Shown here: positions 22,196-22,519 of the stretch, one piece after another
Position numbering within the stretch: the stretch's first letter is position 1
Layout: each line of letters opens with the position of its first letter
Assembly (NCBI RefSeq): GCF_033153115.1
Contig: NW_026889805.1
Coordinates: 7,998,001 to 8,062,000, forward strand
DNA from: Saccostrea echinata
Lineage: Eukaryota
DNA length: 64,000 nt
Direction: 5' to 3'
The notes under the pieces: generated by a model
The model's input: the letters and a program-made list of their open reading frames with translations, nothing else
What the model was told of the DNA's origin: nothing
Databases searched by the model: none
Position numbers and translations under genes: made by a program

Positions 22196-22519
22196 CGAAG
22201 AGTATTCAAGCTCAAAAGTCCATTATACAATACAAAATAGGAGCAGAGCAAACACGGACCTCCAAAACATCAGAGGTGGGATCAGGTGCCATGGAGGAGT
22301 GAGCATCCCCTGCCGACCGGTCACACCCGCCGTGCGCTCCTTGTCATGATCGGCAAATAACGGAAAAATCCGACGACAATTCAGTGTGTAAATAAAGGCC
22401 TAACAATTAGTATGAAAAACATCAGTCAGCATTTGACTCAATGATAAATTGTATTTGCTGACAAGGTCATTGTATCGACCATATAGAATTTACGAAATGA
22501 TGACTTTAAAGGAGACTGT
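22196..22519 (-). mobile_element. Naiad-type PLE 3' fragment
   Basis: Near-identical to 38430-38745 (RT C-terminus and 3' UTR core). Confidence 0.9.

What the first reader, a model, noticed from the sequence alone, without database searches (positions are those of the whole stretch)
22253..22334. Conserved, covarying ~82-nt RNA fold at the 3' end of Naiad retroelements
Seen in at least six copies (3233-3313, 22253-22334, 38482-38562, 41892-41974, 57598-57680, 61186-61265). It is a GC-rich island in an AT-rich UTR, better conserved than its flanks. Sense-strand pairing: closing stem CACGG/CCGTG; CGGGTG/CACCTG; hairpin AGGGG-(7 nt)-CTCCT, which becomes AGAGG/CTTCT in copy 3233 (compensatory G-C to A-T); and a 3' hairpin ACCTCTGA/TTGGAGGT, which becomes ACTTCTGA/TCAGAAGT (41949) and ACCTCCGGA/TCCGGGGGT (57603). 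GGTCGG can alternatively pair with CTGATC, suggesting a pseudoknot or switch. Established: Naiads lack the canonical PLE hammerhead and their RT is telomerase-related. Inference: an uncharacterised structured RNA serving as RT-recognition template or a new self-cleaving/processing motif.
Basis: partly seen in the sequence, partly recalled or inferred. Interest (0 to 1): 0.7.

Follow-up and report, generated by a model that had tools for sequence, protein, structure and literature searches.

The report
Two-palindrome dimer RNA in Naiad retrotransposons
The tail of an abundant oyster-type jumping gene holds a small RNA fold, kept from hydrozoans to acorn worms, with two self-complementary stretches predicted to pair two copies together; it fits no self-cutting RNA family I could test and is likely a new kind of self-cutting RNA, though cutting is untested.

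Summary
The repeat is real: seven window copies, 6,872 exact core matches genome-wide (control 0), lying 66 nt after the stop codon of a Naiad Penelope-like element. Distant homologues give another structure: closing stem, invariant stem CGGGUG/CACCYG, a 5-bp pseudoknot, invariant CAG and GCUYAC, and two loop-less palindromes that change sequence yet stay self-complementary. A structure-blind, tree-aware scan returns only the first palindrome and the pseudoknot as significant. Loop-less palindromes can pair only between molecules, so the RNA is predicted to dimerise. It lacks hammerhead, HDV and hatchet cores. A hammerhead-bearing non-coding repeat in this genome shares the Naiad's start hairpin and end spacing but lacks this fold, so the fold is likely not the reverse-transcriptase handle and likely fills the ribozyme slot. 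Best reading (0.55): an undescribed dimer-dependent self-cleaving ribozyme. No cleavage evidence was obtained. This scan noted the same motif before on other DNA (unreviewed notes); my searches found no paper describing it.

The parts
22196..22516 (-). 5'-truncated Naiad copy: last ORF codons plus 3' UTR
   Evidence: blastn to L002 at 96% and tblastn to the L031 ORF
22253..22334 (-). whole RNA fold (read on the - strand)
22330..22334 (-). P1 5' strand; pairs with 22253-22257; extends outward, sequence varies between families
   Evidence: P1 abuts P2 in 22 of 25 constrained folds (no control)
22324..22329 (-). P2 5' strand CGGGUG, invariant; pairs with 22283-22288 and includes a G-U pair
   Evidence: 5 of 6 pairs never vary; columns were fixed by the search pattern; 12 published consensi read by eye
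22314..22323 (-). palindrome 1, 10 nt, no loop; predicted intermolecular helix
22310..22313 (-). linker ending in invariant CAG
22305..22309 (-). pseudoknot strand a; pairs with strand c
22299..22304 (-). invariant GCUYAC; candidate catalytic segment (inferred)
   Evidence: published consensi by eye
22289..22294 (-). palindrome 2, 6-8 nt, no loop; centre AU in one subfamily, UA in the other
22283..22288 (-). P2 3' strand CACCYG
22278..22282 (-). pseudoknot strand c
22258..22277 (-). P5 hairpin, variable in length and sequence, absent in L327
3232..3314 (+). copy, subfamily B, decayed
38482..38562 (-). copy at the end of a ~2-kb Naiad remnant (38406-40449)
41892..41974 (+). copy, subfamily A, decayed
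57598..57680 (-). copy, subfamily B, decayed
61186..61265 (+). copy at the end of a Naiad remnant (60031-61340)

Best explanation
The fold is a conserved pseudoknotted RNA in the Naiad 3' UTR whose two loop-less palindromes are predicted to pair two copies into a symmetric dimer, and it likely acts as a self-cleaving ribozyme of an undescribed class that would process tandem Naiad transcripts. Shown: the position, the invariant core, the covarying pseudoknot and the two palindromes. Inferred: palindrome 1 pairs with palindrome 1 of a second copy and palindrome 2 likewise, which would lay the CAG-a-GCUYAC strand of one copy against the invariant P2 stem of the other and build two active sites. 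The partner would come in cis from the upstream pseudo-LTR of a tandem or in trans. Cleavage would release unit-length RNA that host ligase could circularise, as shown for hammerhead retrozymes. Reverse transcription would start about 76 nt downstream, set by a separate hairpin. The cut site is not known.
For: Palindrome 1: 100 of 100 cells paired in 20 distinct sequences, 5 of 5 pairs changed on both sides, all four self-complementary centres seen (hand-picked set). Pseudoknot: 5 of 5 pairs changed on both sides, 96.5% paired. Unselected pattern hits: palindrome 1 perfect in 62 of 101 AT-rich loci against 0 of 22 GC-rich chance loci; pseudoknot perfect in 58 of 101 against 0 of 22. Blind tree-null scan: the 8 pairs with family-wise P <= 0.02 are the 5 palindrome and 3 central pseudoknot pairs. 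Palindrome 2 has 3 or more pairs in 21 of 25, shuffles 2.8, maximum 9. Palindrome 1 folds at 0 to -2.6 kcal/mol as a hairpin but -6.8 to -21.4 as a duplex. 34 of 66 element starts have a whole second fold directly upstream. Canonical Penelope-like elements carry palindromic, dimer-dependent hammerheads in this slot (PMC6765202). A hammerhead repeat here shares the downstream hairpin and end spacing but not this fold.
Against: No cleavage was observed. RNA-seq shows no pile-up of ends (poly(A), reads equal in both directions, element body nearly silent, so weak). Upstream copy boundaries do not pile up in the fold: 17 of 66 fall inside it at 14 positions, at most 2 each; the hammerhead repeat's boundaries are also spread, so this does not discriminate. 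Naiad-1_Chem carries the fold and is also flagged HHR_core. In a Poseidon element the hammerhead is dispensable for insertion in vitro (PMC11167929). Palindrome 2 is not significant in fixed columns. Invariant bases fit protein binding equally well. The search pattern fixed the 'invariant' columns, so their invariance rests on the 12 published consensi read by eye.
Confidence: 0.55

Rival explanations
1. A non-catalytic dimerisation and protein-binding signal: the palindromes join two Naiad RNAs, as a retroviral dimer initiation site does, and the invariant core binds the Naiad protein or a host factor.
For: All structural evidence fits. A Poseidon protein is predicted to be a dimer (PMC11167929). 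No cleavage signature.
Against: A ~349-nt repeat with the same start hairpin and end spacing spreads without this fold, so the fold is likely not needed for the protein to find its template. It is seen in only 12 of 54 published Naiad consensi (lower bound), while others carry hammerhead-core or twister-like strings in the same place.
Confidence: 0.27
2. A stability or translation element: the three-way junction plus pseudoknot blocks exonucleases or aids translation of a transcript without its own cap or tail, with dimerisation as an accessory.
For: 3' UTR position; compact pseudoknot; similar roles exist in viral 3' UTRs (recalled, not tested).
Against: Does not explain two palindromes kept by covariation at every pair including the centre.
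Confidence: 0.08
3. A rearranged member of a known ribozyme class (permuted hatchet, HDV-like or hammerhead) that profile searches miss.
For: Rfam also missed the plain minimal hammerhead in L381, L399 and L407, so its silence is weak. A CAG and a possible G-C pair recall hatchet G63-G66 and G31-C64 (PMC6561176). The crossing of P2 and the a:c helix resembles HDV P1/P2 (recalled).
Against: No CUGANGA or GAAA; no counterpart of hatchet C20-A22, U28-G31 or A73-A75; no linker at all between P2 and strand c where HDV has P1.1, P4 and its catalytic C.
Confidence: 0.08
4. No RNA function: conservation reflects recent amplification or a DNA-level site.
For: Single-strand folding energy is no better than shuffles (z -0.08). 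48 of the 80 listed metagenome hits come from one assembly.
Against: Covariation survives thinning to 80% identity and a tree-based null. Non-Watson-Crick pairs in palindrome 1 are U-G on the sense strand (5 cells, no mismatches). Palindrome sequence is free, unlike a protein site on DNA.
Confidence: 0.02

Closest known systems
Minimal type I hammerheads of Penelope-like elements (review PMC6765202, passages read; PMC4209133, search listing only)
   Same: 3' UTR/pseudo-LTR position, palindrome in place of a loop, need for a dimer, tandem arrangement supplying the partner
   Different: No CUGANGA/GAAA core; two palindromes instead of one; a 5-bp pseudoknot and an invariant 6-bp stem; cleavage not shown
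Hatchet ribozyme (PMC6561176, passages read)
   Same: Palindrome-mediated swapped dimer in the crystal; a CAG-containing conserved segment
   Different: Hatchet palindrome is 4 nt and the monomer is judged functional; its other conserved blocks and stem order are absent here
HDV-like ribozymes of retrotransposons (PMC6765202 passages; architecture recalled)
   Same: Retrotransposon-borne pseudoknot; a conserved G-U pair
   Different: Single pseudoknot; no P1.1, P4 or J4/2 cytidine; sits at the 3' end
Animal non-LTR retrozymes (PMC7229834, passages read; bioRxiv 10.64898/2026.07.22.740005, passages read)
   Same: A ~349-nt hammerhead repeat of this kind in G000 shares the Naiad start hairpin and partial-tandem layout
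   Different: It carries a hammerhead where the Naiad carries this fold
Naiad SECIS elements (PMC8557442, passages read)
   Same: Structured RNA in a Naiad 3' UTR
   Different: The L031 ORF is open without UGA recoding; the fold is not a long hairpin; Naiad_Scon and Naiad_Mmer, two of the four SECIS families, show a different 3' motif

Membership tests
Naiad Penelope-like element (host element) | N-terminal GIY-YIG, CxC motif, DKA motif, C-terminal RT in one ORF | tested here: met
   (by eye in translations; Pfam found no family in the 682-aa part)
Naiad Penelope-like element (host element) | 5'-truncated copies, shared 3' end, partial tandems forming pseudo-LTRs | tested here: met
Hammerhead ribozyme, any permutation | CUGANGA and GAAA blocks next to stems (PMC10085705) | tested here: not met
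   invariant columns hold neither block
HDV-like ribozyme | Nested double pseudoknot with P1.1, P4 and a catalytic C in J4/2 (PMC6561176 passage; rest recalled) | tested here: not met
   P2 3' strand runs straight into strand c in 23 of 23
Hatchet ribozyme | Conserved blocks C20-A22, U28-G31, G63-G66, A73-A75 | tested here: not met
   only a CAG resembles one block
Twister, twister-sister, pistol, hairpin ribozymes | Match to class covariance model or core | tested here: inconclusive
   no Rfam hit over the fold, but Rfam also missed a minimal hammerhead; cores compared only from recall
HRIMA candidate motifs (PMC10085705) | Shared core strings | tested here: inconclusive
   four string searches; 4 passages of 12 occurrences shown, none with this layout
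Self-cleaving ribozyme, any class | Site-specific cleavage with 2',3'-cyclic phosphate and 5'-OH | not testable with these tools
   RNA-seq lays uninformative
Eukaryotic SECIS | In-frame UGA in the ORF and SECIS hairpin | tested here: not met
   open 682-aa frame under the standard code; no Rfam SECIS hit
Telomerase RNA template/pseudoknot | Internal template copied into repeats; triple-helix pseudoknot | not tested
   copies end ~76 nt downstream of the fold; no triplex test run

The most novel reading that the evidence does not exclude
A new class of small self-cleaving ribozyme, an obligate strand-swapped dimer held by two palindromic helices with active sites built in trans, spread by Naiad retrotransposons across cnidarians, bivalves, hemichordates and probably a fish; Naiads would then not lack ribozymes but swap hammerhead, twister-like and this new class in one 3' slot, using dimerisation to count tandem copies.
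Probability: 0.5. Interest if true: 0.92.

Novelty: categorically new. Interest (0 to 1): 0.78.

Why it matters
Few natural self-cleaving ribozyme classes are known (12 per the abstract of PMC10761166), and a eukaryotic one with thousands of genomic copies would be directly testable with a 100-nt transcript. It would answer why Naiads thrive without the hammerhead found in other Penelope-like elements, a point left open in PMC8557442. Even if not catalytic, a natural RNA dimer held by two freely varying palindromes is unusual and makes the role of tandem pseudo-LTRs testable.

Tried and rejected
A shifted register of that hairpin fitted five bivalve consensi by eye but failed in hemichordate and hydrozoan ones. 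Rfam: 0 gathering hits in the window; nothing over the fold in 20 and in 5 loci at loose E-values. Prokaryote genomes: 22 pattern hits, 21 without full pseudoknot pairing, 1 a 407-nt contig that reads like the published Naiad_Pmar 3' end, taken as contamination. Viral contigs: 0, 1 and 38 hits for three patterns, none with 5 of 5 pseudoknot pairs, so no monomeric hairpin form found. Searches for a third family in this genome returned only decayed copies of the same two among the rows listed. Cleavage site from pseudo-LTR boundaries: none. RNA-seq: no pile-up of ends. A weak column pair (linker with P5, family-wise P 0.05) is unexplained. Literature searches that found no description of the fold; subscription journals and bioRxiv supplements were not searchable. 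Lunse et al. on dimeric hammerheads was not held and is cited through the review.

Full report
OBSERVATION. The six listed copies lie where stated, in mixed orientation, and a seventh decayed copy lies at 11771-11851. A pattern of the core anchors matches 6,872 places in the genome, the reversed control 0. Thirty best genomic matches share one 3' end and differ in 5' extent. Upstream lies an ORF with CxC, DKA and YIDD motifs and an N-terminal GIY-YIG part, the diagnostic features of Naiads in PMC8557442 (passages). The fold starts 66 nt after the stop codon and ends about 76 nt before the element end. By eye the family is close to the published Naiad_Sglo consensus.

Copies in a genome decay neutrally, so a double change in one copy proves little. 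Among 173 copies split by flanking sequence into subfamilies of 106 and 67, the double change cited for copy 3233 occurs in 2 of 67 (1.6 expected) and that for 41892 in 1 of 106 (0.8 expected). Between subfamilies the core is better kept than its flanks: 47 of 52 against 44 of 66 and 56 of 76. One of the five core differences is a two-base swap at the centre of CCAUGG that keeps it self-complementary.

DISTANT HOMOLOGUES. In the supplement of PMC8557442 (metadata parts 1-2, string searches and 42 sequence ends; read by eye, not computed) the fold appears in 12 of 54 Naiad consensi, a lower bound: two from Clytia, five from bivalves, four from hemichordates, and the last Naiad entry, by table order the fish Chatrabus. 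From these I wrote a pattern that fixes only CGGGTG, CAG, GCTYAC and CACCYG. Split by locus GC alone, 101 are AT-rich and 22 GC-rich. Though the pattern asks for no pairing, the 10 nt after CGGGTG are fully self-complementary in 62 of 101 (at least 4 of 5 pairs in 94) against 0 of 22 (6), and the 5 nt after CAG pair fully with the 5 nt after CACCYG in 58 of 101 (86) against 0 of 22 (1). A Naiad RT end lies upstream in 29 of the 101 and 0 of the 22. Seven distinct types (L240, L247, L264, L297, L299, L303, L327) have no RT in the DNA held; L247 has a GIY-YIG piece on the other strand, just under the Pfam cut-off.

COVARIATION. On 23 hand-picked representatives, chosen one per type and favouring intact copies, the pseudoknot has two-sided changes at 5 of 5 pairs and 96.5% paired cells. 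Palindrome 1, on 21 rows (20 distinct; three length variants left out, one row added), has 100 of 100 cells paired, 48 with two-sided change, and centres AU, UA, CG and GC. To remove my selection I scanned all column pairs in 98 rows (AT-rich hits plus L002 and L363; 5 of 103 dropped for length or edge), thinned to 57 and 23 rows, with an APC-corrected G statistic and 200 tree-based null sets, my approximation of R-scape. At 23 rows the 8 pairs with family-wise P at most 0.02 are the five palindrome pairs and three central pseudoknot pairs; at 57 rows, three and three. Palindrome 2 comes in two registers and was not significant in fixed columns; scored around its centre it has 3 or more pairs in 21 of 25, shuffles 2.8. 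With P2 forced, a closing stem abuts it in 22 of 25 (two rows cut short; no control).

MECHANISM. A palindrome that pairs at its central two bases has no loop, so it can pair only with another molecule; computed duplex energies far exceed hairpin energies. The five non-Watson-Crick cells in palindrome 1 are U-G on the sense strand, pointing to RNA. Two such helices give a symmetric dimer. In it the strand between the palindromes, which holds the invariant CAG and GCUYAC, would end up at the partner's P2 stem; this geometry is my inference. A partner is available in cis: of 66 element starts, all have some of the element's 3' end fused directly upstream and 34 hold the whole fold. Canonical Penelope-like elements hold palindromic hammerheads that cleave as dimers in this slot (PMC6765202, passages).

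WHAT THE FOLD IS LIKELY NOT. The hairpin that opens the Naiad has 262 exact matches in the genome; of 30 loci fetched, 8 are Naiad starts and 22 belong to a ~349-nt non-coding partial-tandem repeat. That repeat carries a minimal hammerhead with a palindromic stem III about 90 nt before the hairpin (7 of 22 loci reach that far with the core intact), lacks the two-palindrome core, and ends 22 nt before the hairpin, as the Naiad ends 21 nt before it. The stems flanking the hairpin differ and still pair in both. This fits internal initiation of reverse transcription near a downstream stem-loop, shown for a Poseidon element (PMC11167929, parts 1-2 of 4 read). So the hairpin is the likely RT handle, and this fold takes the place that the hammerhead holds in the repeat. 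That the repeat is moved by the Naiad is inferred.

AGAINST. No cleavage is shown. Boundaries of upstream copies do not cluster, nor do those of the hammerhead repeat. Three poly(A) runs of a related organism cover the 3' end deeply in both directions, leave the element body nearly silent and show no pile-up of ends; the same negative was reported for an active hammerhead in PMC11167929. Naiad-1_Chem has both the fold and an HHR_core flag. Single-strand folding energy is ordinary.

COMPARISON. It works like the dimeric hammerheads of Penelope-like elements but is not one. Hammerhead, HDV-like, hatchet and SECIS features were tested and not met; twister, pistol and others rest on Rfam silence, which is weak because Rfam also missed the minimal hammerhead. 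Seven literature searches found no description. I reached the dimer reading (notes 28, 33) before looking at earlier scan notes; four of them describe the same motif on other DNA and several describe the shared hairpin in mussel genomes. They are unreviewed and are not counted as support.

VERDICT. Real, covarying, undescribed in the searched literature; dimer well supported by sequence; catalysis likely but untested.

Noticed in passing
L381:1258-1827, L399 and 20 more of L378-L407: ~349-nt non-coding partial-tandem repeat with a minimal type I hammerhead (palindromic stem III) that shares the Naiad start hairpin and end spacing; likely a Naiad-moved retrozyme.
   Followed up: partly
L389:1479-1560 (read on the - strand); 262 matches in G000: Conserved bulged hairpin 21-22 nt after the element end, with an invariant core and covarying flanking stems; also opens many published Naiad consensi. 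Candidate RT start signal.
   Followed up: partly
PMC8557442 File S5, 3' ends of Naiad_Mgal, Bpla, Mphi, Scon, Mmer: A different 3' UTR motif that also has two family-specific palindromes; earlier scan notes read it as a dimer-type twister.
   Followed up: no
PMC8557442 File S5, 3' end of Naiad-1_Movir: A string that looks like a twister core by recalled consensus.
   Followed up: no
window 21992-22020 (+): Hammerhead-like string (CUGAGGA, 5-bp stem II, GAAA) with an extra A and no proper cleavage triplet; probably the decayed end of another Penelope-like element next to the Naiad copy.
   Followed up: partly
window 49324-52872 (-): 1,182-codon open frame of threonine-rich 13-residue tandem repeats, mucin-like, with a hydrophobic start; no Pfam match.
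   Followed up: partly
L247, L264, L297, L303: Well-formed folds in DNA of 45-47% GC with no RT in the part held; L264 sits beside a tetranucleotide-like repeat tract, L247 near an opposite-strand GIY-YIG piece. May mark non-Naiad or non-animal carriers.
   Followed up: partly
L363: 407-nt contig in a bacterial assembly that reads like the Naiad_Pmar 3' end; likely contamination.
   Followed up: partly
L410 and L411: Two element starts 3,293 bases apart on one strand: a direct head-to-tail tandem of unit length.
   Followed up: no
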